From Thermodesulfobacteriota bacterium (lineage in GTDB: Bacteria; Desulfobacterota; Desulfobaccia; Desulfobaccales; 0-14-0-80-60-11): a stretch of 64,000 nucleotides of DNA. Positions 8,611 through 61,538 of this stretch are shown here, piece by piece. The position numbers and the translations under genes are program-made. Where the stretch lies: positions 128,141 to 192,140 of the forward strand of contig JBMORF010000082.1 in the NCBI GenBank assembly GCA_049322315.1, read 5' to 3'. Numbering within the stretch: position 1 is the stretch's first letter; each line of letters opens with the position of its first letter. Below the pieces are notes generated by a model. It worked only from the letters and a program-made list of their open reading frames with translations, made no database searches and was not told the DNA's origin.

Positions 8611-10323
8611 ATGGCCAAGAAGCCGGCAAACCTAGTCTTTGGGGTCGATGAAAATCCGCCTTGGGGGATCACTCTGCTCCAGGGACTGCAGCATGTCTTC
8701 ATCATAACGGTCTACTTTATTTTTCCGGTCATCGTCATCCACGCCTTGGGCGGCACTGACGACCAGGCTGCCACCATGGTCAAGATGTCCATGATCGGCA
8801 TTGGCATCACTACCATATTGCAGGTTCTGCGCAAAGGTCCCATGGGCTCCGGCTACCTTGCCCCCTCAGGCAACGGACCCGCTTACCTATCCGCCACCTT
8901 GCTGGCCGCCAAGTCCGGGGGCCTATCCTTGATCTGCGGGATGACCGTCGTCGCCGGTCTCTTTGAGGTCCTAATCTCCCGCATCGTCAGCCGCCTGCGA
9001 GTCCTGTTTCCGCCGGAAGTCGCCGGACTGGTGGTGACCATGGTGGGCATCGAACTCATCCCCCTGGGCATCGAGCGCTTTTTCGGCCTGGGTCCTGGCG
9101 GGACCGGGATCAGTCGCAACGATTTTCTGGTGGCCCTGATCACCTATGTCTGTATGGTGGGCATCAACACCTGGGGCAAAGGCATGCTGCGCCTCTATCC
9201 CATCCTCATCGGCATGGGGGTAGGCTACCTGAGCGCCTTCTTCTGGGGTATCCTCACTCCCGCCAAACTGAGCAGCATCAGCGCCGCGCCCTGGATCTCC
9301 TTCCCCCGGTTCGCCAGCTTCGGCTGGTCCTTCGATATGGCACTGTTGCTGCCGTTCTTAATTGCCACGCTCTGTTCCACCCTCAAAGACATTGGCGATC
9401 TGACCACCTGCCAAAAAATCAACGACAGCGAGTGGAAGCGCTCCGATATGAAGTCCATCGGCAACGGTATCCTAGCAGATGCTGTGGGTGATATCCTCTC
9501 CGGGGTGATCGGTGGCCTGGGCCAGACCACTTCTTCCAGCAATATCGGTTTCTCTCTGGCTACCGGGGTCACCAGCCGCCGCATCGCCTATGCTATCGGG
9601 GGCCTTCTCTGCTTTCTGGCCTTTTTTCCCAAGTTGGCGCAGTTCTTTGTGATCATGCCCCGGCCGGTCATGGGGGCCATTCTGATCTTTGTGACCAACT
9701 TCATGGTTCTGGCGGGTTTTCAGATCATCACCACCCGGATGCTGGACACCCGGAAGATCTTTGTCATCGGCACCTCTTTTATCTTTGGGATTTCGGTGTT
9801 CCTCTACCCCCAGGCCTATCGCCAGGTCCCCGCTTTAGTGCAACCCATTTTTAGTTCCGCCCTCTCCCTGGCCACCATTAGCGTAGTCATCCTGAATCTT
9901 ATCTTTCGCCTGGGCATTGCCAAACGCCAGGGGCTCACCATCACCCCCGAGGATCGTGATTTTGCTGAGAAACTCACCACCTTTATGCAGAGGCAGGGGG
10001 CGGCCTGGGGCGCCCGGCGGGAGGTGATCCAACTGGCGGAGTCGGCCATGATAGAGTTTATGGAGGCCCTGGTGGGTCTGAAGCTGGCCGGCGGCCCCAT
10101 CGAGGTGGAGGCGAAATTTGACGAGATGAGCCTGGAGGTGAGCTTCCACTATCAGGGACGCCTGCTGGATTTCCATCCCCAGCTCCCCAGCCAGGCCGAC
10201 TTATTGGAGGACGAGGAAGCAGTCTACCGGCTCTCCAGCTTCATCATCAAGAATCATGTAGACCGCATCAAAACCGGGGAAGAGAACGGCCGTTGTTTGG
10301 TGGTTTTTCACTTCGACCATTAA
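8611..10323 (+). CDS. NCS2 (xanthine/uracil/vitamin C permease) family transporter with a roughly 130-aa cytoplasmic C-terminal RsbW-like (degenerate GHKL) domain
   Basis: ATG 8611 is preceded by GAGGGGGG. The N-terminal motif WGITLLQGLQHVF and a multi-TM body are typical of NCS2. The tail (9925..10320) aligns by eye with the adjacent RsbW-like kinase. Confidence 0.75.
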   Translation: MAKKPANLVFGVDENPPWGITLLQGLQHVFIITVYFIFPVIVIHALGGTDDQAATMVKMSMIGIGITTILQVLRKGPMGSGYLAPSGNGPAYLSATLLAAKSGGLSLICGMTVVAGLFEVLISRIVSRLRVLFPPEVAGLVVTMVGIELIPLGIERFFGLGPGGTGISRNDFLVALITYVCMVGINTWGKGMLRLYPILIGMGVGYLSAFFWGILTPAKLSSISAAPWISFPRFASFGWSFDMALLLPFLIATLCSTLKDIGDLTTCQKINDSEWKRSDMKSIGNGILADAVGDILSGVIGGLGQTTSSSNIGFSLATGVTSRRIAYAIGGLLCFLAFFPKLAQFFVIMPRPVMGAILIFVTNFMVLAGFQIITTRMLDTRKIFVIGTSFIFGISVFLYPQAYRQVPALVQPIFSSALSLATISVVILNLIFRLGIAKRQGLTITPEDRDFAEKLTTFMQRQGAAWGARREVIQLAESAMIEFMEALVGLKLAGGPIEVEAKFDEMSLEVSFHYQGRLLDFHPQLPSQADLLEDEEAVYRLSSFIIKNHVDRIKTGEENGRCLVVFHFDH

Positions 10324-10327
10324 AGGA

Positions 10328-10753
10328 TCAGGACACGGCAGCAGGCGGGGTCAGGTCAAAGCAGAAGGTCACCTGGTTGACGCCGGATTCATAGTGATAG
10401 TCGATCTCATCGGCCAGTTGCCGGGCCAAGTGGATTCCCAGCCCCCCGATGGACCGCTGTTCCAAGTCCGGACCCAGATTCGGTGGCCCCTTTTCCAGGA
10501 GATTGAAGCGTCGGCCCCAATCCCGCAAAGACAGGCAAAATCGGTGTTGATCCTCCAGGAAGAAACTTACCTCCACCTCACCCGGCCCCCGGGGGTAGGC
10601 GTAGCGGATAATGTTGGTCAGCAGCTCTTCCAGGACCAATTCGATCTCCCATCTTCGCTCCCGGGGCAGGCCCAATTGCTCCAGTTCCGGCGCCAGAAAA
10701 GACCGGAAGGCCTCCAGAGATTCCATAACTGCCGGTAATCGCAGCCGGTTCAT
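10328..10753 (-). CDS. Anti-sigma-factor-type serine kinase (RsbW/SpoIIAB-like, HATPase_c_2)
   Basis: 141 aa. N-box-like EIELVLEELLTNIIRYAY, G-box SIGGLGIHLARQLADEIDY. Its start overlaps the stop of the STAS gene by 4 nt (10750..10753). Confidence 0.85.
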   Translation of the reverse strand: MNRLRLPAVMESLEAFRSFLAPELEQLGLPRERRWEIELVLEELLTNIIRYAYPRGPGEVEVSFFLEDQHRFCLSLRDWGRRFNLLEKGPPNLGPDLEQRSIGGLGIHLARQLADEIDYHYESGVNQVTFCFDLTPPAAVS

Positions 10754-25046: not shown

Positions 25047-25127
25047 TTTTATTCCCCTTTGAGCATCGCCTCATAGTGGGCGGTCCGAGGGAGACCGGGA
25101 TTTCTCCCGGTCCCCCCGAGGTTCGCC

Positions 25128-26657
25128 CTACATTTTCGGAGCCAGCACCTGCATCCCCATGAGGGGCCAGATAAGGTAACAGAACAGAGCCAGCACCACC
25201 ATCAGGACGGCGCTGGGGATCCAGCCGTAAGTGAAGAATTCCCCGGTGGTGAATTGTTTGCTCTCATAGGCAATGGCGTTGGGGGCCGCGCCGATGAGCA
25301 GGTTAAAGGGCATGCCCGCGGTGACCAGGGAGGCGAAGAGGATGACCATGGGACCCACGCCTAGATATTTGGCGATGACCAGGGACACCGGCAGGGAAAT
25401 GGCGATGGCCGCCACGTTCATGATGAAGTTGGTCATCAACAGGACGAAGAAAGCGATGCCCAGGACGAAGACCAGCCAATTAGCCTTGAGGAACATGGTG
25501 AGCCAATGGATGGCCAGCCATTCCGCCGCGCCCGTCTGCCACAGGCAGAAGCCGATGGACATGGCCCCGCCAAAGAGGAGGATGATGTTCCAGGGAATGG
25601 CTTCCAGGTCTTCCACCGTCAAAGTTTTTGTCATAAAGAAGGCCAGGGTGCCGATGAGCATGATACCGGCCCGGTCCAGCTTGGCAAAGGCCGGTACGAA
25701 GGACTTGAGCATGAAGAGGGTAACCACCACCGCCATGGTGACGATGACCACCCATTCCTTGGGGCTTAAGGGGCCCAGCTCCTTGGAGAGTTCCTGGGCC
25801 TTGGCCCTGAGCCCGGAGATGGAGTTCCGTTCCGGCGGGAAAATCATGATAATAATAAGCCAGATCAGGAAGACCATGATCACCCCCACCGGCAGCATAT
25901 ACCAGGTGAGTTCGAAGAAGGCAATGTCTTTGCCGGTGAACTCCTTGAACATGCCGGCCGCGGCCACGCCCCGGGCCGCGCCCAGAAAGGTGATGATGGA
26001 GCCGGCGCCCGCCACCCAGGCCATGCCGATGAAGAGGCCCTTACCGAACTTGGTGGGCTGATCGCTCTCGCTGTAGAGGGCGTGGATGGCCAGGAGCAGG
26101 GGAAAGATGGCCGCGGCCACCGCGGTGTGGGCCATGAGCAGGGTCATGGCGGCGATGACCAGAAAGGTGCCCAGGAGGATGAAGCGGGTGTTTTCCCCCA
26201 CGACAGTCAGCATCTTGTAGGCCATGCGTTTGGTGAGACCCGAGGCGCTGAAGGCCAGGCCGATGACCACCGAACCGAAGATAAACCAGACCGAGGGGTC
26301 CAGGAAGTCCCCCAGGGCCTGCTTGGCGGTGCGCAGATGGAACAGGACTTGAAAAAGGCCGATGGCAATGGCGGTGGCGCCGATGGGCATCACCTCGAAG
26401 ACCCACCAAATTCCGGCCATGAGAAAAAGGCCCAGGGACAATTTCCCGGTCCAGGAGAGCTTGAAGACTTTACCAGCCGGGTCCACCCCGTCCGGCAAGG
26501 TAGGAATGGCATAAAAAATAAAGAATACTGCCAAGCCCAACAGAATGTAACAGACACGTCTCCAATCGATGGGCACTTTTTTAGGGGCAATAAAGATCTC
26601 TTCCGGCATCTCCGGCAGGCCCGCACCCACCGGCATTTTTTTAACATCTTCCGCCAT
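25128..26657 (-). CDS. DASS/SLC13 family divalent-anion:sodium symporter-like transporter
   Basis: 509 aa polytopic protein. Duplicated hairpin motifs (..AAIFPLLLAI.., ..NVAAIAISLPV.., GAAPNAIAY) are typical of DASS transporters. Confidence 0.75.
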   Translation of the reverse strand: MAEDVKKMPVGAGLPEMPEEIFIAPKKVPIDWRRVCYILLGLAVFFIFYAIPTLPDGVDPAGKVFKLSWTGKLSLGLFLMAGIWWVFEVMPIGATAIAIGLFQVLFHLRTAKQALGDFLDPSVWFIFGSVVIGLAFSASGLTKRMAYKMLTVVGENTRFILLGTFLVIAAMTLLMAHTAVAAAIFPLLLAIHALYSESDQPTKFGKGLFIGMAWVAGAGSIITFLGAARGVAAAGMFKEFTGKDIAFFELTWYMLPVGVIMVFLIWLIIIMIFPPERNSISGLRAKAQELSKELGPLSPKEWVVIVTMAVVVTLFMLKSFVPAFAKLDRAGIMLIGTLAFFMTKTLTVEDLEAIPWNIILLFGGAMSIGFCLWQTGAAEWLAIHWLTMFLKANWLVFVLGIAFFVLLMTNFIMNVAAIAISLPVSLVIAKYLGVGPMVILFASLVTAGMPFNLLIGAAPNAIAYESKQFTTGEFFTYGWIPSAVLMVVLALFCYLIWPLMGMQVLAPKM

Positions 26658-49097: not shown

Positions 49098-49973
49098 TTG
49101 GCAAATTTTCACGACTTGCTCCAGTTCATCTTCGCGGGTTTGACCGGCGGCGCCATCTACGCCCTGGTGGCCCTGGGCTTCGGGGTGGTGCACAACACCA
49201 TGGGCATCGTCAACTTCACCCAGGTGGATTTCGTCTCCTTGGGGGGGATGATCCTGTTCAGCGCCCTGTTTGCCGTGGGCCTGCCCATGCCCCTGGCCCT
49301 GGCCGCGGCGGTGGTGGGAGTGACCCTGGTGGCCATCGTCGTGGAGGAAATCGGCGTCCGGCCTTCCCGCTCCCAGAGCCACCTGGTGTTGATCTTCCTG
49401 ACCATCGGGTTGTCCATCATCCTCCGGGGAGTCATGAAGATCATCTGGGGCAAAAACCGCATGGCCGTGCCGCCTTTATCCGGCGAAGCGCCGGTGAAAC
49501 TGTGGGGCGCCACCATCCTGCCCCAGACCCTGTGGATTCTGGCCCTCACCGCCGGGGCCATCGTGCTGTTGGTCCTCTTCTTTCGGAAGACCTCCATGGG
49601 CCTGGCCATGCGGGGGGTGGCCGCCAACGAGGAAGCCGCGGCTACGGTGGGTCTCAAGGTGCGCCGGGTCAAGGCCATGAGTTTCGCCCTGGCCGGGGCC
49701 CTGGGGGGCCTGGCCGGGTGCCTGGTGACCCCCATCACCACGCTTTCTTATGACGTGGGCGTGCTCCTGGGCCTCAAAGGTTTCGCCGCCGCCATTTTAG
49801 GGGGCTTCGGCTCCTTTCCCGGGGCCATTCTGGGGGGCTTGATCCTGGGGCTGCTGGAGACCCTGGGCGCGGCTTATATCAGCAGCGCCTATAAGGACGT
49901 CATCGCCTTTGTGGTGCTGCTGTTGGTGCTCTTTATCCGCCCCCGGGGATTATTGGGTGGGGGAGCAGGGTGA
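49098..49973 (+). CDS. livH: Branched-chain/hydrophobic amino acid ABC transporter permease (LivH-type)
   Basis: 291 aa from a TTG start. FIFAGLTGGAIYALVALGF..VNFTQ and the C-terminus DVIAFVVLLLVLFIRPRGLLG are typical of LivH. Confidence 0.85.
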   Translation: MANFHDLLQFIFAGLTGGAIYALVALGFGVVHNTMGIVNFTQVDFVSLGGMILFSALFAVGLPMPLALAAAVVGVTLVAIVVEEIGVRPSRSQSHLVLIFLTIGLSIILRGVMKIIWGKNRMAVPPLSGEAPVKLWGATILPQTLWILALTAGAIVLLVLFFRKTSMGLAMRGVAANEEAAATVGLKVRRVKAMSFALAGALGGLAGCLVTPITTLSYDVGVLLGLKGFAAAILGGFGSFPGAILGGLILGLLETLGAAYISSAYKDVIAFVVLLLVLFIRPRGLLGGGAG

Positions 49974-49984
49974 GGAGATGTTCC

Positions 49985-50042
49985 GTAGGCGAACCTTGTG
50001 TTCGCCCCGGGGCCCAGGGCGAACACCAGGTTCGCCCCTACG
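49985..50042. repeat. REP-like hairpin doublet (GGCGAAC-N6-TTCGCC type)
   Basis: GTAGGCGAACcttgtgTTCGCCCC (49985..50008) and GGCGAACaccaggTTCGCCCCTAC (50018..50041). The same units occur at 58045..58062 and inside the RAYT ORF (58358..58509). A half-site lies at 25121..25131. Confidence 0.8.
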
Positions 50043-50077
50043 TTTAATCCCGATTTAAATCAAAACCACCAGTGGTA

Positions 50078-50542
50078 ATGCCTAAACATAGCGCCGGATT
50101 ATTGATGTACCGCCACCGGGAAGGCGTCCTGGAAGTTTTCCTGGTACATCCCGGCGGCCCCTTTTGGGCCAAAAAGGACCTGGGCGCCTGGTCTCTGCCC
50201 AAGGGGGAATATAACCCGGAGGAGGACGCCCTGGCCGCGGCCCGGCGGGAGTTTGCCGAAGAAACCGGCTTCGAGGCCGGGGGGGATTTTATTCCTCTCA
50301 CGCCCTTAAAACAGCCCAGCGGCAAAGTCATCGACGCCTGGGCCTTTGCGGGAGACTGCGACCCCGCAGCTATAAAAAGCAACACTTTTGCCCTGGAATG
50401 GCCGCCCCGCTCCGGGAAGCAACAAGAATTCCCGGAGATCGACCGGGCCGGGTGGTTTACCATCGAGGAAGCGAAGGTTAAAATAATCAAGGGGCAGGCG
50501 GGGCTTTTGGAGGAGTTGCAACAGATTTTAAGCCTGCCGTGA
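50078..50542 (+). CDS. NUDIX hydrolase
   Basis: Likely start ATG 50078 (MPKHSAGLLMY). Nudix box GEYNPEEDALAAARREFAEETGF. It is flanked by repeat elements on both sides. Confidence 0.85.
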   Translation: MPKHSAGLLMYRHREGVLEVFLVHPGGPFWAKKDLGAWSLPKGEYNPEEDALAAARREFAEETGFEAGGDFIPLTPLKQPSGKVIDAWAFAGDCDPAAIKSNTFALEWPPRSGKQQEFPEIDRAGWFTIEEAKVKIIKGQAGLLEELQQILSLP

Positions 50543-56784: not shown

Positions 56785-57117
56785 TTGATGGCTGCTGCAT
56801 TAACCATGGGTACCCGGATTTACCGGCCGGCCTCCCTGGCGGGCCGGGGGCAGGAGGTGCGTCTGGTGCTGGAAAACCCCGCCATGGAACACTTCGATGA
56901 GGGCACGGTCATGCTCCGGGCCGTGCCGGACGGGGCCGGGGCTGAACACTGGCGGGTCATCCCCTGGGAGGCAGGGGGTGGCCGGGTCCTGGTCTGCGAC
57001 GAACCCATCCCCGAGGACTGGACCTATTTCGAGGTCCTCTTTGCGGACGTCAACTTCGTGGCGGTCTCGCCGGTGGCGGGGGAGCTGGAGGAACTGAGAA
57101 AGCTCTACCGTCCGTGA
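56785..57117 (+). CDS. Hypothetical 110-aa protein
   Basis: Track ORF with normal-looking amino-acid composition, preceded by GAGGAGG. No family recognised. Confidence 0.45.
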   Translation: MMAAALTMGTRIYRPASLAGRGQEVRLVLENPAMEHFDEGTVMLRAVPDGAGAEHWRVIPWEAGGGRVLVCDEPIPEDWTYFEVLFADVNFVAVSPVAGELEELRKLYRP

Positions 57118-57230
57118 ATTTCGAAAGCCGGACCGCCCGGGCCCGACTCCTGTACTGCAGCAGGCCGATCCATTCGTTAACTTCCGGCTACAACTGATAA
57201 AAAATTAGCTCAGCAAGCGTTACCTGCCCC

Positions 57231-57443
57231 TCACCGGCTCACCGGCTCGTAATAGGCCACGCCATCCCCCCACCAGGTGAGTTTATAGCGCCTGCCCTTC
57301 ATATCGATATGGGGCCGCACCCAGAGAATGAGGCGTTCTATCAAACGGCCGTGCAAAGGATGGGAAAAAACCGCGGTCACCAACCGGGTGGGTTCGTCCA
57401 CCACGTCGGGAAAAGGATCAACATGTAATTCCGGCATAGCCAA
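57231..57443 (-). CDS. Hypothetical 70-aa protein
   Basis: Track ORF, MAMPELHVDPFPDVVDEPTRLV... No family recognised. Confidence 0.35.
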   Translation of the reverse strand: MAMPELHVDPFPDVVDEPTRLVTAVFSHPLHGRLIERLILWVRPHIDMKGRRYKLTWWGDGVAYYEPVSR

Positions 57444-57638
57444 ACTTCTCCTGTAAATCTTGCGCCTTGATTGCCACTTCTATTTTTATAATATAACCTT
57501 ACCAGCAAAATTTTGCCAAGCGGCAGGGGAGTGAGCCTGAGTTTCCAGGGGCCGGGAGGGATTCTCCTTGGATTTCGAAGGTTCCTGGACAAACAAAATA
57601 TTTTCCATTATTTATTTACATCATTTAGGATAGTCACC

Positions 57639-57875
57639 ATGGTGCGGATAGGGATTTACTTGACGGAAAAGCAGCAGGCCGCGCTCCGGGACCTGGCCCG
57701 GCAGACCGGCCAGACCCAGAGTAAATTGATCCGCCGGGCCATTGACGACTTCATTGATCGCCATAAGGCTCTGGACCGCCGGGCCATGTTGGAGCAGGCC
57801 TGGGGGATATGGAAAGATAGAGACGATCTGCCTGATTTTCGCGCCTTGCGCAAGGAATTTGACCGCTGGGCTTGA
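57639..57875 (+). CDS. vapB: Ribbon-helix-helix (CopG/VapB-type) antitoxin
   Basis: 78 aa from ATG 57639: MVRIGIYLTEKQQAALRDLARQTGQTQSKLIRRAIDDFI, an RHH fold pattern. It is followed 12 nt later by a PIN-like ORF. Confidence 0.75.
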   Translation: MVRIGIYLTEKQQAALRDLARQTGQTQSKLIRRAIDDFIDRHKALDRRAMLEQAWGIWKDRDDLPDFRALRKEFDRWA

Positions 57876-57887
57876 CGTCTTAGGGGT

Positions 57888-58103
57888 ATGATGGTCCCGT
57901 GGCTATTGGTGGATACAAGCGTGATAGTGGATTATCTTCGGAACCTTGATGAAAATGGGGCTTATCTAGAGGCGCAGGCTGAAGCCCTTCCTTTTCCACC
58001 ATCACCATGGCGAAACTCTATGCCGAGATGTGGGAGGAACGCTGGGCGAACACAAGGTTCGCAACGTTGGCAATGCGAATGGTTGATCCCTTATGATGAC
58101 TAA
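57888..58103 (+). pseudogene. vapC: Decayed PIN-domain (VapC-type) toxin gene: frameshifted and truncated
   Basis: The N-terminus LLVDTSVIVDYLR carries the first PIN acidic residue. The expected ..STITMAKLYAEM.. segment is only readable in another frame after about 57990. Similarity ends at the REP unit at 58045..58062. The ORF is 71 aa, whereas PIN toxins are usually about 130 aa. Confidence 0.65.
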
Positions 58104-58791
58104 ATTAGCTGAAAAGCGGCGGCGTTCCATCCGCATACAGGGATGGGATTATTCCCAGGACGGGGCTTATTTCGTTACGGTTTGCACCCATAATAAAGAA
58201 TACCTTTTCGGAGATATTGTCGGGGATTTAATGCATCTCAATGCCCCTGGAGAGATGGTTCTTCAGACCTGGGAGGAATTACCGGCGCGATTTCCGGCCA
58301 TGGAACTGGACGCCATGGTCCTCATGCCCAACCATTTCCATGCAATCGCAGTCATTCGTAGGGGCGAACCTTGTGTTCGCCCTGAGCGCCCCGAATCTGG
58401 TTTAAGCCCGGAACCTGGTGTTCGCCCCTCTTCCACGCCCCTCGAAGATATTAGGCATATTAACCTTGGCGATCACCCGGACCAGGGCGATCACAAGGAT
58501 CGCCCCTACAGGAAACGCCCACAAGGGACAGGGGCGGAATCAATTGGGCGCATCGTCCAGGCGTTTAAATCCCTAACTACCCACCGATATATTCAGGGCA
58601 TACGGAAATCCGGCTGGCCGCCATTTAAGGGAAAGTTATGGCAGCGCAACTATTTCGAACGGATCATCAGAGATGAGAATGAATGGGAGCGCATTTCCGA
58701 ATACATTGCAGCCAACCCTGTGAATTGGGCGTTGGATCGGGAGAACCGGGAGGCGGGGAAGGTTAGGGCGGGGGAACCGTGGCAGGTGTAG
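58093..58791 (+). CDS. REP-associated tyrosine transposase-like protein (IS200/IS605 Y1 HUH family, RAYT-type) with a REP-derived insert
   Basis: 232 aa. WDYSQDGAYFVTVCT, the HUH motif MPNHFHAI, and the catalytic Tyr region LWQRNYFERIIRDE. Residues about 88-148 are encoded by three REP-like units (58358..58509). Confidence 0.85.
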   Translation: MMTKLAEKRRRSIRIQGWDYSQDGAYFVTVCTHNKEYLFGDIVGDLMHLNAPGEMVLQTWEELPARFPAMELDAMVLMPNHFHAIAVIRRGEPCVRPERPESGLSPEPGVRPSSTPLEDIRHINLGDHPDQGDHKDRPYRKRPQGTGAESIGRIVQAFKSLTTHRYIQGIRKSGWPPFKGKLWQRNYFERIIRDENEWERISEYIAANPVNWALDRENREAGKVRAGEPWQV

Positions 58792-58846
58792 AAATGGTAG
58801 GGAAGCAGTACCCATTTTACGTCTGTTTACCATATAATTGAAGATT

Positions 58847-59434
58847 ATGGAAGATGATATTCGCATTTCCTGGGAAAGGTTTTTAAACCCTGATGTTTTG
58901 AGAACTAATTTAATAGTGGCTTCGCTATATATAACTGCATTTGAAATGCTAAAAGAAAGTATAATAGAACGACCAAAAGAATATTTCTCAGTAGGTTATG
59001 ATAAAAATGGTCTAATTGTTGATGAAAAATATAATATAAAAGTATTGAGTTTAAATAAAAGTCCGCTTTATGCATCTTTATCTTGGCTAAAAGATATGGA
59101 TGCAATAGATAGTAATGATATAGATATTTTTGATAAAATTATAAAATGCAGAAACGACATAACCCATGAAATTGTTAATTATATTTCAAAAGGAGTGAAG
59201 ACTGATCCACTTCCACTTTTTAATTCAACGATAGACCTATTGCACAAAATTGAAAAATGGTGGATTCTAAATATAGAGATAGCTATTAATCCGGAACTGA
59301 ATGAAAAAGAAGTTAAAGAGGATGAAATTGTTCCTGGTAAAATCATGATTCTGCGCTTGCTTTTGGATATAGCATTGGGGTCTGAAAAAGAATCAAGACT
59401 CTATTACAATGAGTTTATTAAAAAGCATGATTAA
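58847..59434 (+). CDS. AT-rich foreign ORF, all-alpha-looking, with a candidate HEPN RNase motif (RNDITH)
   Basis: 195 aa from ATG 58847. Hand counts of 17 and 22 G+C per 60 nt at 58921 and 58861, against 44 per 60 at 59521. The motif KCRNDITHEI fits the HEPN Rx4-6H pattern with Asn after Arg. Its 3' end overlaps the livF start by 26 nt. Confidence 0.55.
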   Translation: MEDDIRISWERFLNPDVLRTNLIVASLYITAFEMLKESIIERPKEYFSVGYDKNGLIVDEKYNIKVLSLNKSPLYASLSWLKDMDAIDSNDIDIFDKIIKCRNDITHEIVNYISKGVKTDPLPLFNSTIDLLHKIEKWWILNIEIAINPELNEKEVKEDEIVPGKIMILRLLLDIALGSEKESRLYYNEFIKKHD

Positions 59435-61538
59435 AGATAATATTGAAACCCTACTCCACATCTCCAACCTTACCGTCCATTATGGGGCGGCGCAGGCGTT
59501 GTTTGGGGTGTCGCTCTCCGTGGGCCGGGGGGAGACGGTGGCCCTGGTGGGGGCCAATGGGGCGGGGAAGACCAGTCTCTTGAAGGCGGTGATGGGGTTG
59601 GCGCCGCCTTCCGGGGGGCAGATTCTCCTGGAGGGGGAGGACGTCACCGGCTCTACCCCTGCGGCCATGGCGGCCCGGGGGGTGGCTTTGGTCCCCGAGG
59701 GGCGGGAGATGTTCGGAGACCTGACGGTCAAGGAGAATTTGGAGTTGGGGGTTCTGGCCCTGAATATTAGCCGGGGGGAAATGCAGAGCCGTCTGGAGGA
59801 GGTCTTCAGCCGCTTCCCCAAGCTGAAGGAGCGCAGCAAGCAACGCAGCAACACCCTGTCCGGCGGGGAGCAGCAGATGGTGGCCATGGGCCGGGCCTTG
59901 ATGGCTAAACCCCGGCTCCTGCTCCTGGATGAGCCCTCTTTGGGCCTGGCGCCCTTGATTACTGACGAAATCTTTGAGATTATCAAACAACTCACCCGGG
60001 CCGGGGTGACCATCCTCTTGGTGGAGCAAAACGCGGCCCGGGCCTTGACCGCGTCCAAATCCGCCTATTTGCTGGCCAACGGCAAGATCGTGGGCCAGGG
60101 CCGGAGCGACAAGCTCCTGCTGGACCCGGAACTGCGCCGGGCCTTTTTGGGCGCGGGCTCCGGCGACAACCCCGCGGCTTCCCGCCTGGGCGCAGCCGGA
60201 CTTACTAATATCAGACTGGAAAAACCGGATATGAGCAAACTGACTTTTATGCCTCCCTTTAAAACCAGGGAAGAACTTGAGGAACATCAGCTTCAACGCC
60301 TGAAGTGGAGCATACGCCACGCCTTCGAAGGCTCCAGCTTCTACCGGGCCCATCTGGAGGCTGCCGGCGTCACCCCCGGCGACATCCGCTCTCTGGACGA
60401 CCTGCAAAAACTTCCCCTGACCACCGCCGACGACCTCCGGGACGGCTATCCCTTCCCTTTCCGGGCCGTGCCCTTCGAGCAGATCGTGCGTATCCACGCC
60501 TCCTCCGGCACCACCGGCAAGCGCAAAATTCTGGGCTACACCCAAAAGGACCTGGACGACTGGGAGCATTTCTTCGCCCGGGCCTACGAGATGGCCGGGG
60601 TCACGCCTTTGGACCGGGTGCAAATCGCGGTGGGCTACGGGGTGTGGACCGCGGGCGCGGGCTTCCAGGCGGGGGTGGAAAAATTGGGAGCCCTGGCCGT
60701 ACCCGTGGGGCCGGGGAACGTGGACATGCACTGCGAGTTTCTGGTGGACCTGCAAAGCACGGTGCTCTGCTGCACCGCCTCCATGGGGTTGCTCATGGCC
60801 GAAGAGGTAAATAAGCGGGGCATCGCCGACAAGATCAACCTCCAAAAAGTCATCTACGGCTCGGAGCGCTCCAGCGTCTCCATGCGCCGTAAGATCTCGG
60901 AACTCCTGGGGGGCGTGGAACTCTTCGACATCCCCGGCATGACCGAACTCTACGGGCCGGGCACCGGCATCGAGTGCCCGGATCACGACTGCATCCACTA
61001 CTGGGCGGACTACTACCTCCTGGAAATCCTGGACCCGGAGACGTTGCAACCCCTGCCCGAGGGCGAATGGGGGGAGATGGTGGTGACCACCCTCACCAAG
61101 GAGGCCGCGCCCTTGCTCCGCTACCGCACCCGGGACATCACCCGCATCATCCCCGGGCCTTGCACCTGCGGGTCCATCCTTCCCCGGCATTCCCGCCTCC
61201 GGGGCCGCACCGACGATATGTTCAAGTTCCGGGCGGTGAACATCTACCCCTCCAGCATCGACAAGATTCTCTCGGAGGTGCCGGGCTTAGGCTCCGAATA
61301 CCAGATCCACCTGACCCGGGAGGCCGGGGGCCGGGACCACATGCTGCTGAAGGTGGAGCGGGGCGAAGGGGTGGAACCGGGCCGGGCCGATGAACTGGGC
61401 CGGGAGATCATTTACACGGTCAAACACAAACTTCTGGTCACCCCGGAGGTGGAGGTGGTGGAGTACGGCGCCCTGCCCCGGACGGACCGGAAGAGCAAGA
61501 GAGTTTTTGATACCAGGATAACTGATTCGGTAGTGTAA
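59409..61538 (+). CDS. In-frame fusion ORF: LivF-type ABC ATPase (aa 1-248), 26-aa linker, then phenylacetate-CoA ligase (PaaK, from Met275 at nt 60231)
   Basis: 709 aa with no stop between the modules. LivF part: GANGAGKTS, LSGGEQQMVAMGRAL, LLLDEPSLGLAP, ..RRAFLG. PaaK part: EEHQLQRLKWSIRHAF..FYRAHL, IHASSGTTGKRK, YGPGTGIEC. Confidence 0.8.
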   Translation: MSLLKSMIKDNIETLLHISNLTVHYGAAQALFGVSLSVGRGETVALVGANGAGKTSLLKAVMGLAPPSGGQILLEGEDVTGSTPAAMAARGVALVPEGREMFGDLTVKENLELGVLALNISRGEMQSRLEEVFSRFPKLKERSKQRSNTLSGGEQQMVAMGRALMAKPRLLLLDEPSLGLAPLITDEIFEIIKQLTRAGVTILLVEQNAARALTASKSAYLLANGKIVGQGRSDKLLLDPELRRAFLGAGSGDNPAASRLGAAGLTNIRLEKPDMSKLTFMPPFKTREELEEHQLQRLKWSIRHAFEGSSFYRAHLEAAGVTPGDIRSLDDLQKLPLTTADDLRDGYPFPFRAVPFEQIVRIHASSGTTGKRKILGYTQKDLDDWEHFFARAYEMAGVTPLDRVQIAVGYGVWTAGAGFQAGVEKLGALAVPVGPGNVDMHCEFLVDLQSTVLCCTASMGLLMAEEVNKRGIADKINLQKVIYGSERSSVSMRRKISELLGGVELFDIPGMTELYGPGTGIECPDHDCIHYWADYYLLEILDPETLQPLPEGEWGEMVVTTLTKEAAPLLRYRTRDITRIIPGPCTCGSILPRHSRLRGRTDDMFKFRAVNIYPSSIDKILSEVPGLGSEYQIHLTREAGGRDHMLLKVERGEGVEPGRADELGREIIYTVKHKLLVTPEVEVVEYGALPRTDRKSKRVFDTRITDSVV

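What the first reader, a model, noticed from the sequence alone, without database searches (positions are those of the whole stretch)
58045..58791. RAYT-type transposase whose ORF contains three copies of the REP hairpin it presumably mobilises
**REP units outside the gene**
Intergenic REP units of the form GTAGG(G)GCGAAC-cttgtg-TTCGCC(CC) and GGCGAAC-N6-TTCGCCCCTAC occur at:
- 49985..50042, as a doublet.
- 58045..58062, where the vapC remnant is truncated.
- 25121..25131, a half-site overlapping a stop codon.

**REP units inside the gene**
The same nucleotide units occur in the Y1-transposase gene, translated as RRGEPCVRPE, PEPGVRPSS and QGDHKDRPYR:
- 58358..58382 (GTAGGGGCGAACCTTGTGTTCGCCC)
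- 58410..58430
- 58486..58509

Together they form a roughly 60-aa insert between the HUH motif (HFH, aa 81-83) and the catalytic Tyr region (RNYFER, aa 185-190).

**Established knowledge**
RAYTs bind and cleave REP hairpins.

**Inference**
REPs have invaded, or been domesticated within, the transposase ORF. This could allow autoregulation or self-targeting. It also explains peptide strings such as GEHKVRPY seen in hypothetical proteins.
Basis: partly seen in the sequence, partly recalled or inferred. Interest (0 to 1): 0.6.

Follow-up and report, generated by a model that had tools for sequence, protein, structure and literature searches.

The report
REP hairpins inside a RAYT gene
A domesticated transposase gene carries, in frame, copies of the DNA hairpins its protein is thought to cut and copy; the pattern is real and far from chance, but it was already described in 2018 as typical of this transposase subclass.

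Summary
ORF 58093-58791 (+) encodes an intact HUH/Y1 REP-associated tyrosine transposase (RAYT, TnpA_REP). Between the HUH strand (H81-F-H83) and helix alphaC it carries three in-frame units. These are a forward GTAG-footed REP hairpin (58358-58382), a decayed forward copy (58410-58430) and an inverted REP (58485-58509). The two intact units form a 27-nt inverted repeat, like a REPIN. The same hairpin occurs outside genes at 49985-50042 and, decayed, at 58044-58062.

In 164 distinct related loci from many phyla, 131 carry such hairpins inside the gene. The order is almost always forward then inverted. Stem changes are compensatory, the units are read in different frames, and they match that genome's own extragenic REPs. 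The conservation is therefore in the DNA, not the peptide. AlphaFold models the insert as a disordered loop.

This is not new. Quentin et al. [quoted passage not shown]

One correction: the catalytic tyrosine is Y204, not the RNYFER segment, which is the GTAG-guide-binding segment. Whether the intragenic REPs are tolerated passengers, a protected source copy or a regulatory site remains open.

The parts
58093..58791 (+). RAYT / TnpA_REP gene, 232 aa, intact
   Evidence: ORF. Pfam Y1_Tnp scores 23.7 bits against a cut-off of 23. NCBIfam REP_Tyr_transpos scores 64.7 bits in two stretches, below the cut-off of 80. There are 975 homologues, many named RayT by JGI. The AF2 core has pLDDT above 90, and Foldseek hits only Y1 HUH transposases, including 4er8_A.
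58333..58341 (+). HUH motif codons (H81-F82-H83)
   Evidence: Read directly from the sequence. H81 and H83 are invariant in alignment A1. They align to the E. coli HMH motif (H59, M60, H61) in 4ER8.
58357..58542 (+). Insert encoding aa 89-150, a disordered linker between the HUH strand and helix alphaC
   Evidence: The AF2 model shows no secondary structure from aa 89 to 150, with pLDDT block means of 41-56. This region is variable in length and gapped in A1, and absent in some homologues.
58358..58382 (+). Forward REP unit: GTAG foot, 8-bp stem GGGCGAAC/GTTCGCCC, loop CTTGT; translated as RRGEPCVRP
   Evidence: -9.8 kcal/mol, z -5.5. It is identical in the orthologues L161 and L167.
58410..58430 (+). 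Decayed second forward REP; only the 3' arm and loop are retained; translated as PEPGVRPS
   Evidence: Direct repeat D2, 17 nt at 94% identity. It forms no stable hairpin. It is absent from the orthologues L164 and L001 as part of a 39-45-nt indel.
58485..58509 (-). Inverted REP unit (GTAGGGGCGATCCTTGTGATCGCCC on the minus strand); translated as QGDHKDRPY
   Evidence: inverted repeat I1; -9.7 kcal/mol, z -5.2. Its stem differs from the forward unit by a compensated A/T swap. The orthologues L164, L167 and L001 have GAAC/GTTC here.
58639..58671 (+).
   Evidence: It aligns to 4ER8 W94-R104. The GTAG-contacting residues W94, Q95, W99, E100, H101 and R104 are listed in PMC6006769 Fig. S11. W183 and Q184 are invariant, and E189 and R193 nearly invariant, in A1.
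58702..58704 (+). Codon of Y204, the predicted catalytic tyrosine
   Evidence: It aligns to the catalytic Y115 of 4ER8, and N208 aligns to N119. Y204 and N208 are invariant in A1.
58044..58062 (-). Decayed inverted REP about 30 nt upstream of the start codon; foot lost
   Evidence: -6.4 kcal/mol. Intact copies sit at the same place in L161 and L164 (inverted orientation) and L001 (forward orientation).
57888..58034 (+). Remnant of a PIN/VapC toxin gene (about 48 codons) deleted up to the upstream REP
   Evidence: Alignment with the intact 128-aa PIN gene of the syntenic locus L164. The N-terminal match to VapC in NCBIfam is faint.
57639..57875 (+). RHH antitoxin gene, the partner of the PIN remnant; context only
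   Evidence: Pfam RHH_3 (E 2.7e-8) and RHH_1 (E 2e-7). It is syntenic in L161 and L164.
49985..50042 (.). Extragenic REP doublet of the same family: forward unit 49985-50006, inverted unit 50017-50041
   Evidence: (-25.6 kcal/mol, z -8.0). It lies between ORFs 49098..49973 and 50072..50542.
25121..25131 (-). REP half-site remnant (GTAGGGCGAAC on the minus strand) whose TAG is a stop codon
   Evidence: ORF 25128..26657(-) ends here. As evidence for a REP this is weak on its own.

Best explanation
**What it is.** The ORF encodes an intact REP-associated tyrosine transposase of the kind described as TnpA_REP subclass 2.4 (RAYT group 4).

Its coding sequence contains a REPIN-like element in frame. 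This element is a GTAG-footed REP hairpin, a decayed second copy and an inverted REP. It sits in the hypervariable linker between the HUH beta-strand and helix alphaC.

The units belong to the same REP family as the extragenic copies in the window. They are conserved as DNA hairpins, which are the predicted single-strand substrate of the enzyme, and not as peptides. The peptide they encode is a disordered surface loop that the HUH/Y1 fold tolerates.

The arrangement is inherited with the gene across the whole subclass.

**Shown here.**
- Presence, non-randomness and hairpin stability of the units.
- Family-wide occupancy of the same gene site.
- Compensatory covariation in the stems.
- Independence from reading frame.
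- Match between internal hairpins and each genome's own external REPs.
- A disordered loop in the structure model.
- Vertical synteny of the gene in related genomes.

**Inferred.**
- The encoded enzyme binds and cuts these hairpins.
- The intragenic units are kept matched to the genome's own REP family by copying of whole REPINs between the intragenic site and nearby extragenic sites.
- The intragenic copies are tolerated substrates rather than parts needed for catalysis.
For: **Enzyme identity.**
- HUH motif at H81/H83, Y204 and N208 aligned to Y115 and N119 of 4ER8, and GTAG-binding residues W183, Q184, E189, R193.
- Y1-transposase fold, with 4er8_A the best match by rmsd (3.4 A).

**REP units in the window.**
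- 5 hairpins against 0.26 expected.
- Stable 8-bp stems.
- A 27-nt inverted repeat inside the ORF.

**Family-wide pattern.**
- 148 of 173 loci have at least one GTAG-footed hairpin inside the gene under a relaxed scan, and 114 have both orientations.
- With strict GTAGGG plus 8-bp-stem criteria, 131 of 164 distinct genes have one.
- Hairpin density is 25.3 per 10 kb inside the gene against 1.55 per 10 kb in 1.7 Mb of flanks.
- The order is forward then inverted in 96 of 97 genes.

**Conservation is at the DNA level.**
- 90.3% of stem cells are paired against 73.7% in shuffles.
- 240 cells have changes on both sides against 63 in shuffles. Controls with the partner slid by 1-3 columns give 37-52% paired.
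- GTAGGG is read in both frames that avoid the TAG stop (125 and 20). CCCTAC is read in all three frames (77, 53, 15).
- At the amino-acid level in 120 homologues, the compensated combinations dominate. These are EP.V 52, ES.I 43, DP.D 6 and EA.L 2, against DP.V 1. For the inverted unit, they are DH.D 53, EH.V 52 and EY.I 3, against EH.D 1.

**Match to the genome's own REPs.** In 49 of 77 loci the internal hairpin equals an external one with at most 1 mismatch. Permuted loci give 4.1 +/- 1.9.

**Whole-REPIN copies inside and outside the gene.**
- In L011, 9838-9947 and 10256-10365 share the same two stems and the same spacing, and the spacer is 96.7% identical.
- The upstream REPIN of L164 is 85% identical to the internal REPIN of L001.

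**Orthologues at a syntenic locus.** The two units are kept, with only compensated changes, while the spacer diverges and has indels.

**The insert is dispensable and disordered.** AF2 pLDDT is 41-56 with no secondary structure over aa 89-150. Homologues without an insert exist.

**Published description.** PMC6006769, sections 11, 13 and 23, describes exactly this.
Against: - No biochemical evidence here shows that this protein binds or cuts these hairpins.
- The NCBIfam equivalog model scores 64.7 bits, below its cut-off of 80. Sequence similarity to 4ER8 is weak (E 0.14).
- Only three extragenic hairpins are seen in 64 kb. Genome-wide abundance could not be measured.
- The 'tolerated passenger' part is not secure. 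The intragenic site is occupied in about 80% of genes. In contrast, about 35% have a unit within 400 nt upstream and about 35% within 400 nt downstream. The hairpins also stay intact while the spacer decays. This persistence looks like more than neutral tolerance.
- Loci with and without internal hairpins have the same external hairpin density, 1.54 against 1.59 per 10 kb. The link between internal copies and local REP abundance is therefore not simple.
Confidence: 0.69

Rival explanations
1. **Protected source copy.** The intragenic REP/iREP pair is the long-lived master copy of the genome's REPIN population. Because it sits inside the transposase gene it cannot be lost without losing the gene. 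It therefore travels with the gene and re-seeds extragenic REPINs, which keeps enzyme and substrate matched.
For: - The intragenic site is the most constantly occupied REP site: 131 of 164 genes, against 48 of 138 with a unit within 400 nt upstream and 39 of 113 within 400 nt downstream.
- Internal hairpins equal external ones in 49 of 77 loci, against 4.1 expected with permuted loci.
- Whole REPINs with homologous spacers occur both inside and just outside the gene (L011, L164/L001).
- Upstream REP units share stem type with the internal units in 20 of 36 loci, against 4.2 with permuted loci.
- The subclass is scattered across many phyla.
Against: - The direction of copying, from inside the gene outward or the reverse, is not resolved by any result here.
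- The extragenic doublet in the window (49985-50042) has an 8-nt spacer and two GAAC stems. It is therefore not a copy of the internal element, which has a 98-nt spacer and GAAC plus GATC stems.
- Genome-wide REPIN populations could not be examined.
- Gene conversion from abundant external copies would give the same match.
Confidence: 0.15
2. **Cis-regulatory or self-targeting site.** The hairpins inside the ORF are selected because the RAYT, or host factors that act on REPs, bind or cut its own gene or mRNA. This would limit or switch expression of the enzyme.
For: - High and persistent occupancy of one gene site, with a fixed forward-then-inverted order in 96 of 97 genes.
- The hairpins are kept intact while the spacer diverges.
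- Tandem expansion and contraction of REP-derived codons among homologues suggests ongoing DNA-level activity at the site (P0038, P0039, P0057, P0119).
- In L011 and L164 the upstream and internal REPINs are direct repeats that bracket the promoter-proximal half of the gene. They could mediate deletion of that half.
- REPs are reported to affect mRNA stability, termination and translation, as cited in PMC6006769.
Against: - No expression or cleavage data exist.
- 33 of 164 genes lack internal hairpins under the strict criteria. These include clear insert-free relatives (P0088, P0108), so the site is not required.
- All genes examined are intact ORFs, so no 'switched-off' alleles were seen.
- The promoter/terminator scan is uninformative.
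Confidence: 0.12
3. **Protein motif.** RRGEPCVRP and GEHKVRPY/GDHKDRPY are functional peptide motifs. The palindromes are a by-product of coding, and the extragenic 'REPs' are fragments derived from the gene.
For: The two peptides are very widespread among the closest 120 homologues, at fixed positions flanking the linker.
Against: - In more distant relatives the same DNA unit is read in other frames (VGA.../...APT/...SPL).
- The amino-acid pairs E..V, D..D, S..I and A..L are exactly those demanded by Watson-Crick compensation, and uncompensated pairs are almost absent.
- The region is modelled as disordered with low confidence.
- Insert-free homologues exist.
- Lineage-specific stems match the local extragenic REPs.
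Confidence: 0.03
4. **Chance or low-complexity resemblance.** The matches are short GC-rich palindromes that occur by chance in a 57% GC window.
For: One of the listed sites (25121-25131) is only an 11-nt half-site. The heptamer GTTCGCC alone occurs 13 times in the window.
Against: - 5 full hairpins against 0.26 expected, with 0 of 100 shuffles reaching 5.
- Folding z-scores of -5 to -8.
- The same architecture recurs in more than 130 independent genes.
Confidence: 0.01

Closest known systems
TnpA_REP subclass 2.4 of Quentin et al. 2018 (BMC Genomics 19:475, PMC6006769), equal to RAYT group 4 of Bertels et al. 2017 (PMC5581495)
   Same: - HUH and Y motifs are present.
- A highly variable insertion lies between beta3 and alphaC.
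- REPs have a GT[AG]G foot, and the stem bottom is three G-C pairs.
[quoted passage not shown]
- The gene is also flanked by REPs.
- The subclass is scattered over many phyla, and REP copy number is low (about 14 occurrences of flanking 16-mers per replicon).
   Different: Nothing essential differs.
- This member comes from an uncultured Deltaproteobacteria-like genome, whereas the subclass was described as most abundant in Cyanobacteria and Bacteroidetes.
- The paper treats the inserts as probably neutral. It does not report, in its searchable text, the fixed forward-then-inverted order, the differing stems of the two units, the compensatory covariation, or whole-REPIN copies inside and outside the gene.
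- Assignment to the subclass by their own clustering was not run here.
E. coli TnpA_REP (RAYT) with REP/BIME, PDB 4ER8 (Messing et al. 2012, PMC3479197)
   Same: - Same fold: Foldseek E 3.5e-5, rmsd 3.4 A.
- HUH motif, catalytic Tyr on alphaD, metal-ligand Asn, and the W-Q...E...R GTAG-binding segment.
- The substrate type is a 5' GTAG followed by a hairpin, and REPs occur in alternating orientations.
   Different: - The E. coli REPs lie outside the gene and have imperfect, bulged stems. Here the stems are perfect 8-bp stems, and two units lie inside the ORF.
- The E. coli protein has about 30 residues between HUH and the WQ segment. This protein has about 100.
- Sequence identity is only about 15%.
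IS200/IS605 family TnpA (IS608, ISDra2) with subterminal LE/RE hairpins
   Same: Y1 HUH fold (top hits). Hairpins with a guide tetranucleotide are recognised on single-stranded DNA.
   Different: - Those are multi-copy mobile insertion sequences whose hairpins flank the gene and define the element ends.
- This gene is single-copy at a conserved chromosomal locus in related genomes.
- Its hairpins are short dispersed repeats, two of which lie inside the ORF.
Intragenic REPs and Rickettsia palindromic elements: in-frame palindromic repeats inside protein-coding genes (Di Nocera et al. 2013, PMC3733652)
   Same: Short GTAG-tagged palindromic repeats are inserted in frame, often as dimers. They are translated into extra peptide segments in loops or linkers and are thought to be tolerated.
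   Different: - There the host genes are unrelated (uvrA, replication and repair genes), and the insertions are sporadic and lineage-specific.
- Here the host gene is the cognate transposase itself. The same site is occupied across a whole protein subclass.

Membership tests
RAYT / TnpA_REP (HUH-Y1 REP-associated tyrosine transposase) | HUH motif on a beta-strand | tested here: met
   H81-F-H83. H81 and H83 are invariant in A1. The motif lies on strand E81-88 of the AF2 model and aligns to the E. coli HUH in 4ER8.
RAYT / TnpA_REP (HUH-Y1 REP-associated tyrosine transposase) | Single catalytic tyrosine on helix alphaD with a following metal-ligand Asn | tested here: met
   Y204 and N208 align to Y115 and N119 of 4ER8. 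Both are invariant in A1 and lie on helix 195-207. Catalysis itself was not tested.
RAYT / TnpA_REP (HUH-Y1 REP-associated tyrosine transposase) | Residues that bind the 5' GTAG guide (E. coli W94, Q95, W99, E100, H101, R104) | tested here: met
   W183, Q184, F188, E189, R190 and R193 are the aligned residues. Four of six are identical and one is aromatic for aromatic. W183 and Q184 are invariant in A1.
RAYT / TnpA_REP (HUH-Y1 REP-associated tyrosine transposase) | Curated sequence model (NCBIfam NF047646 REP_Tyr_transpos; Pfam PF01797 Y1_Tnp) | tested here: inconclusive
   NF047646 scores 64.7 bits in two stretches, below its cut-off of 80. The match is split by the insert. PF01797 scores 23.7 bits, just above its cut-off of 23.
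RAYT / TnpA_REP (HUH-Y1 REP-associated tyrosine transposase) | Y1 HUH transposase fold | tested here: met
   In the AF2 model, 108 of the 232 residues, all outside the insert, have pLDDT of at least 90. The top 30 Foldseek PDB hits are all IS200/IS605 TnpA or TnpA_REP. 4er8_A has rmsd 3.4 A and TMq 0.47.
RAYT / TnpA_REP (HUH-Y1 REP-associated tyrosine transposase) | Association with GT[AG]G-footed REP hairpins next to the gene and dispersed in the genome | tested here: met
   A decayed unit lies about 30 nt upstream (58044-58062), and intact units occupy that place in orthologues. An extragenic doublet lies 8 kb away. Genome-wide copy number is not testable with 64 kb.
RAYT / TnpA_REP (HUH-Y1 REP-associated tyrosine transposase) | Single-copy, vertically inherited (domesticated) gene rather than a multi-copy IS | tested here: met
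   There is one copy in the window. Three related lineages show the same neighbourhood: an RHH/toxin pair, the RAYT, a variable gene, and an ABC plus AMP-binding fusion gene. Whole-genome copy number was not tested.
RAYT / TnpA_REP (HUH-Y1 REP-associated tyrosine transposase) | Binding and cleavage of REP single-stranded DNA | not testable with these tools
   This needs purified protein and oligonucleotides.
TnpA_REP subclass 2.4 (Quentin 2018) / RAYT group 4 (Bertels 2017) | Insertion between beta3 and alphaC that is highly variable in length and sequence | tested here: met
   aa 89-150 in this protein. Homologues show a wide range of linker lengths, from inserts longer than this one down to only a few residues.
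TnpA_REP subclass 2.4 (Quentin 2018) / RAYT group 4 (Bertels 2017) | [quoted passage not shown] | tested here: met
   58358-58382 and 58485-58509. The same holds in 131 of 164 related genes.
TnpA_REP subclass 2.4 (Quentin 2018) / RAYT group 4 (Bertels 2017) | Canonical REP with a GT[AG]G foot and three consecutive G-C pairs at the bottom of the stem | tested here: met
   GTAG followed by GGG...CCC. Columns 5-7 pair with columns 24-26 and are 87-93% G-C across 150 units.
TnpA_REP subclass 2.4 (Quentin 2018) / RAYT group 4 (Bertels 2017) | Clustering with reference members of the subclass (their MCL/HMM classification) | not tested

The most novel reading that the evidence does not exclude
The intragenic REP/iREP pair may not be a passive passenger. 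It could be the protected source copy of the genome's REPIN population.

On this reading the RAYT gene would be a self-contained replicator. It would carry its own substrate in a disordered loop, re-seed extragenic REPINs from it, and so keep enzyme and hairpin co-evolving over long times and across horizontal transfers. Self-cleavage at these sites might also act as a brake.

**Consistent with this.**
- Occupancy is about 80% inside the gene, against about 35% upstream and about 35% downstream.
- Internal units match external ones in 49 of 77 loci, against 4.1 expected.
- Whole-REPIN paralogues occur inside and just outside the gene (L011, L164).

**Not shown.** The direction of copying.
Probability: 0.15. 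Interest if true: 0.65.

Novelty: new member of a known kind. Interest (0 to 1): 0.33.

Why it matters
How REP/REPIN populations and their single-copy RAYT enzymes stay matched over millions of years is an open question.

A RAYT subclass that keeps copies of its own substrate inside its reading frame is a natural test case. It allows the hairpin to be changed without changing the protein, by synonymous recoding, and the protein to be changed without changing the hairpin.

For annotation, the result explains three things:
- why recurrent peptides such as GEHKVRPY, GDHKDRPY, RRGEPCVRP and VGA...APT appear in many 'hypothetical proteins';
- why curated RAYT models score below threshold on this subclass;
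- why gene starts next to REPs are often mis-called.

For this scan, the basic phenomenon is already in the literature, so the finding is a confirmation and not a discovery.

Tried and rejected
1. **Metagenome scan for close relatives.** DNA of close orthologues was obtained through the look-up of encoding contigs instead.
2. **Rfam search of 57000-59500.** It gave only two sub-threshold chance hits. No curated RNA family covers these hairpins.
3. **Promoter/terminator scan.** Counts were at the shuffle level and uninformative.
4. **Local REP abundance.** I tested whether genes lacking internal hairpins sit in REP-poor surroundings. They do not: 1.59 against 1.54 external hairpins per 10 kb. 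Internal occupancy is therefore not simply a reflection of local REP abundance.
5. **The window's extragenic doublet as a copy of the internal element.** Rejected. It has an 8-nt spacer and GAAC/GAAC stems, whereas the internal element has a 98-nt spacer and GAAC/GATC stems.
6. **AlphaFold-database fold search.** This was meant to link the protein to named subclass 2.4 members, but the library was unavailable.
7. **PADLOC on the RAYT and the AT-rich neighbour.** Nothing significant.
Rejected on alignment to 4ER8.
9. **Peptide-motif and chance explanations.** Rejected.
Full report
**1. What is in the window**

ORF 58093-58791 (+) encodes a 232-aa protein. It matches Pfam Y1_Tnp at 23.7 bits against a cut-off of 23. 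It matches NCBIfam REP_Tyr_transpos at 64.7 bits in two stretches, below the cut-off of 80, because the match is split by an insert.

- GTAGGGGCGAACCTTGTGTTCGCCC at 58358-58382.
- GGAACCTGGTGTTCGCCCCTC at 58410-58430.
- GGCGATCACAAGGATCGCCCCTAC at 58486-58509.
- An extragenic doublet at 49985-50042.
- GGCGAACACAAGGTTCGC at 58045-58062.

The pattern GGCGAAC-N5-GTTCGCC with up to 2 mismatches hits five sites, against 0.26 expected. None of 100 shuffles reaches five hits.

As single-stranded DNA, the first and third internal units fold into 8-bp stems with 5-nt loops. Their energies are -9.8 and -9.7 kcal/mol, with z about -5. The middle unit does not fold better than shuffles (z 0.11) and is a decayed copy.

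The first and third units are in opposite orientation. They form a 27-nt inverted repeat, 93% complementary, separated by 98 nt. This is the layout of a REPIN. Their stems differ by a compensated swap: GAAC/GTTC against GATC/GATC.

**2. The protein**

An AlphaFold2 model built on 40 homologues has a confident core; 108 of 232 residues reach pLDDT 90 or more. It has no secondary structure from aa 89 to 150, where pLDDT block means are 41-56. This stretch lies between the HUH strand (aa 81-88) and a long helix (aa 151-173).

The top 30 Foldseek PDB hits are all Y1 HUH transposases. E. coli TnpA_REP (4er8_A) gives the best superposition, with rmsd 3.4 A and TMq 0.47.

HMMER alignment to 4ER8 pairs 'NIWQPRFWEHAIR...DYIYINP' with 'KLWQRNYFERIIR...EYIAANP'.
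- The catalytic tyrosine of the E. coli enzyme is Y115, with N119 as a metal ligand (PMC3479197). The catalytic tyrosine here is therefore Y204, with N208. Both are invariant in alignment A1.
These are W94, Q95, W99, E100, H101 and R104 (PMC6006769 Fig. S11).

**3. The same architecture runs through the whole clade**

A protein search gave 975 homologues. In the 120 listed, the linker after the HUH strand nearly always starts with RRGEPCVRP, RRGESCIRP or RRGDPCDRP. It ends with GEHKVRPYG, GDHKDRPYG or GEYKIRPY. The middle is variable in length and often tandemly repeated.

These peptides are translations of the forward and inverted REP. The residue pairs that co-vary are exactly the ones that restore base pairing:
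- For the forward unit: EP.V 52, ES.I 43, DP.D 6 and EA.L 2, against one uncompensated DP.V.
- For the inverted unit: DH.D 53, EH.V 52 and EY.I 3, against one EH.D.

I then fetched DNA. The sources were 80 loci from species-representative genomes, 80 from metagenomes and 12 around close orthologues.
- Under a relaxed scan, 148 of 173 loci have at least one GTAG-footed hairpin inside the RAYT ORF, and 114 have both orientations.
- Under strict criteria (GTAGGG plus an 8-bp stem with at most 1 mismatch), 131 of 164 distinct genes have one.
- Density is 25.3 per 10 kb inside the gene, against 1.55 per 10 kb in 1.7 Mb of flanks.
- The forward unit precedes the inverted unit in 96 of 97 genes that have both.
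- The two units have different stem cores in 80 of 97.

**4. The conservation is in the DNA, not the peptide**

GTAGGG is read in both frames that avoid the TAG stop (125 and 20 occurrences). CCCTAC is read in all three frames (77, 53, 15).

I took a random 150 of the 273 distinct GTAGGG-anchored 29-mers, without selecting for hairpin quality (alignment A2). The 8-pair stem gave the following:
- 90.3% of cells are paired, against 73.7% in column shuffles (0 of 500 shuffles reach the observed value).
- 240 cells carry a change on both sides, against 63 in shuffles.
- Controls with the partner slid by 1-3 columns give only 37-52% paired.

The three middle pairs each show two or three common Watson-Crick types.

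There is a caveat. Copies of a mobile hairpin inherit complementarity by descent. The covariation therefore shows that the hairpin is what is propagated or selected. It does not show that it functions inside this gene.

**5. Internal units track each genome's own REPs**

In 49 of 77 loci that have both internal and external hairpins, an internal unit equals an external one with at most 1 mismatch over the foot, stem and loop. Permuting the loci gives 4.1 +/- 1.9.

Whole REPINs are also shared between the inside and the outside of the gene.
- In L011 (a Chloroflexota chromosome), 9838-9947 lies just upstream of the gene and 10256-10365 lies inside it. They have the same two stems and the same spacing, and their 60-nt spacer is 96.7% identical.
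- In L164, the REPIN between the PIN gene and the RAYT is 85% identical over its full length to the internal REPIN of L001. The spacer alone is 75% identical.
- 14 of 42 testable loci show extragenic matches to the internal spacer, mostly next to the gene. Some of these were not inspected individually.

A REP unit lies within 400 nt upstream in 48 of 138 loci, and within 400 nt downstream in 39 of 113. The intragenic site is therefore the most constantly occupied one.

**6. Local history**

The closest relatives have the RAYT in the same neighbourhood. These are P0001 (87% identity), P0003 (73%), P0005 (71%) and L001 (65%). The neighbourhood is an RHH antitoxin with a toxin gene, then the RAYT, then a variable gene, then an ABC-ATPase/AMP-binding fusion gene. 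This fits a single-copy, vertically inherited gene.

In a DNA alignment of five orthologues, both REP units are kept with only compensated changes. The forward unit has GAAC/GTTC or GAAT/ATTC. The inverted unit has GATC/GATC or GAAC/GTTC. The spacer diverges and has 39-45-nt indels, and the decayed middle unit is part of one such indel.

Upstream, L164 has an intact 128-aa PIN gene followed by a REPIN. The window keeps about 48 PIN codons, and L161 keeps none. Both deletions end within 7-8 nt of the left edge of the upstream inverted REP. Two independent deletions share that boundary.

**7. Comparison with what is known**

Quentin et al. [quoted passage not shown] They report several further points:
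- The beta3-alphaC insertion is highly variable and contains short DNA repeats.
- The REPs of this subclass have a GT[AG]G foot and three G-C pairs at the stem bottom.
- A homology model puts the region at the periphery of the protein.

Subclass 2.4 equals RAYT group 4 of Bertels et al. 2017. That group is found in 17 bacterial classes and is associated with low REP copy numbers. In-frame REP insertions in unrelated genes are described by Di Nocera et al. 2013.

The window's gene meets every feature of subclass 2.4 that I could test. Its formal clustering with reference members was not run. The finding is therefore a new member of a known kind.

I did not find the following in the searchable text of that paper, although they may be visible in its figures:
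- the quantitative covariation;
- the amino-acid-level signature of compensation;
- the fixed orientation order;
- the differing stems of the two units;
- the higher occupancy inside the gene than in the flanks;
- the whole-REPIN paralogues inside and outside the gene.

**8. Mechanism**

The best-supported reading is as follows. The enzyme recognises the GTAG foot plus hairpin on single-stranded DNA, as E. coli TnpA_REP does. Two such substrates sit inside its own gene in a loop that the fold does not need. They are kept matched to the genome's REP family by copying of whole REPINs between the intragenic site and nearby sites.

The anatomy, statistics, synteny and structure model are shown. 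The enzymatic activity and the direction of copying are inferred.

Two more interesting readings are not excluded:
- The intragenic pair is the protected source copy of the REPIN population (about 0.15).
- It is a self-regulatory or self-targeting site (about 0.12).

A peptide-motif explanation and chance are rejected.

**9. Verdict**

- The catalytic tyrosine is Y204.
- One of the three units is decayed.
- Autoregulation is untested.

The phenomenon is real, striking and mechanistically unexplained, but it was published in 2018. Interest is therefore moderate to low for a discovery scan.

Noticed in passing
window 58838-59434 (+), and 58800-59400 generally: An AT-rich island (GC 26-30% against 57% for the window) holds a 198-aa ORF directly downstream of the RAYT. 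Its only matches are faint HEPN-like (Pfam HEPN_Cthe2314, E 0.08) and Csx1 (PADLOC, E 0.007) hits. In syntenic loci this slot holds a DUF4238 gene (L161, L167) or an Mrr_cat gene (L164), so it looks like a variable, defence-like slot next to the RAYT.
   Followed up: partly
window 57888-58062; L161 1800-1840; L164 9485-9974: Two independent deletions of the PIN/VapC toxin gene both end within 7-8 nt of the left edge of the inverted REP upstream of the RAYT. The deletion is partial in the window and complete in L161. L164 keeps the intact toxin plus a full upstream REPIN. This suggests REP-bounded deletion. It also leaves an orphan RHH antitoxin.
   Followed up: partly
window 25121-25131 (minus strand); L164 9868-9871: The TAG inside the GTAG foot of a REP serves as the stop codon of the adjacent gene. 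This holds for ORF 25128..26657(-) in the window and for the PIN gene in L164.
   Followed up: partly
window 59409-61538 (+): A 709-aa ORF appears to fuse an ABC-type ATPase (LivF-like) to an AMP-binding (phenylacetate-CoA-ligase-like) enzyme. The same 703-704-aa fusion (ABC_tran plus AMP-binding plus AMP-binding_C_2) is conserved in the syntenic loci L161, L165 and L167.
   Followed up: no
loci L001-L172, RAYT inserts: Within one gene, the forward and inverted REP units usually have different stem cores (80 of 97). AGGC with AACC and AGAC with GAAC are the commonest pairs. This is reminiscent of the Y/Z REP types of E. coli BIMEs. The order is forward then inverted in 96 of 97 genes.
   Followed up: partly
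L011 9838-9947 and 10256-10365; L164 9868-9974: Near-identical whole REPINs (two stems plus spacer) occur just upstream of the RAYT start and inside the ORF. They are direct repeats about 420 nt apart that bracket the promoter-proximal half of the gene. They could mediate deletion or duplication of that half.
   Followed up: partly
proteins P0038, P0039, P0057, P0119, P0049, P0062, P0091: Some homologues carry long tandem arrays of REP-derived codons in the linker, such as GDHNPGDHNP..., GDHRGDHQGDHK..., or three to four GEHKVRPYG units. This indicates slippage or repeated REP duplication at this site.
   Followed up: no
proteins P0020, P0059, P0054: These proteins have N- or C-terminal extensions made of REP translations (VGANLVFAQ, RGANTRFAPT, WANTWFAPT, GGHKDRPYKC). 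They are probably mis-called gene ends that run through flanking REPs. This is a source of REP-derived peptides in 'hypothetical proteins'.
   Followed up: no
window 57463-57525 (-): A sub-threshold Rfam hit to RT-18 sRNA (25.5 bits against a gathering score of 41.3, E 0.16) lies upstream of the RHH antitoxin gene. It is probably chance.
   Followed up: no
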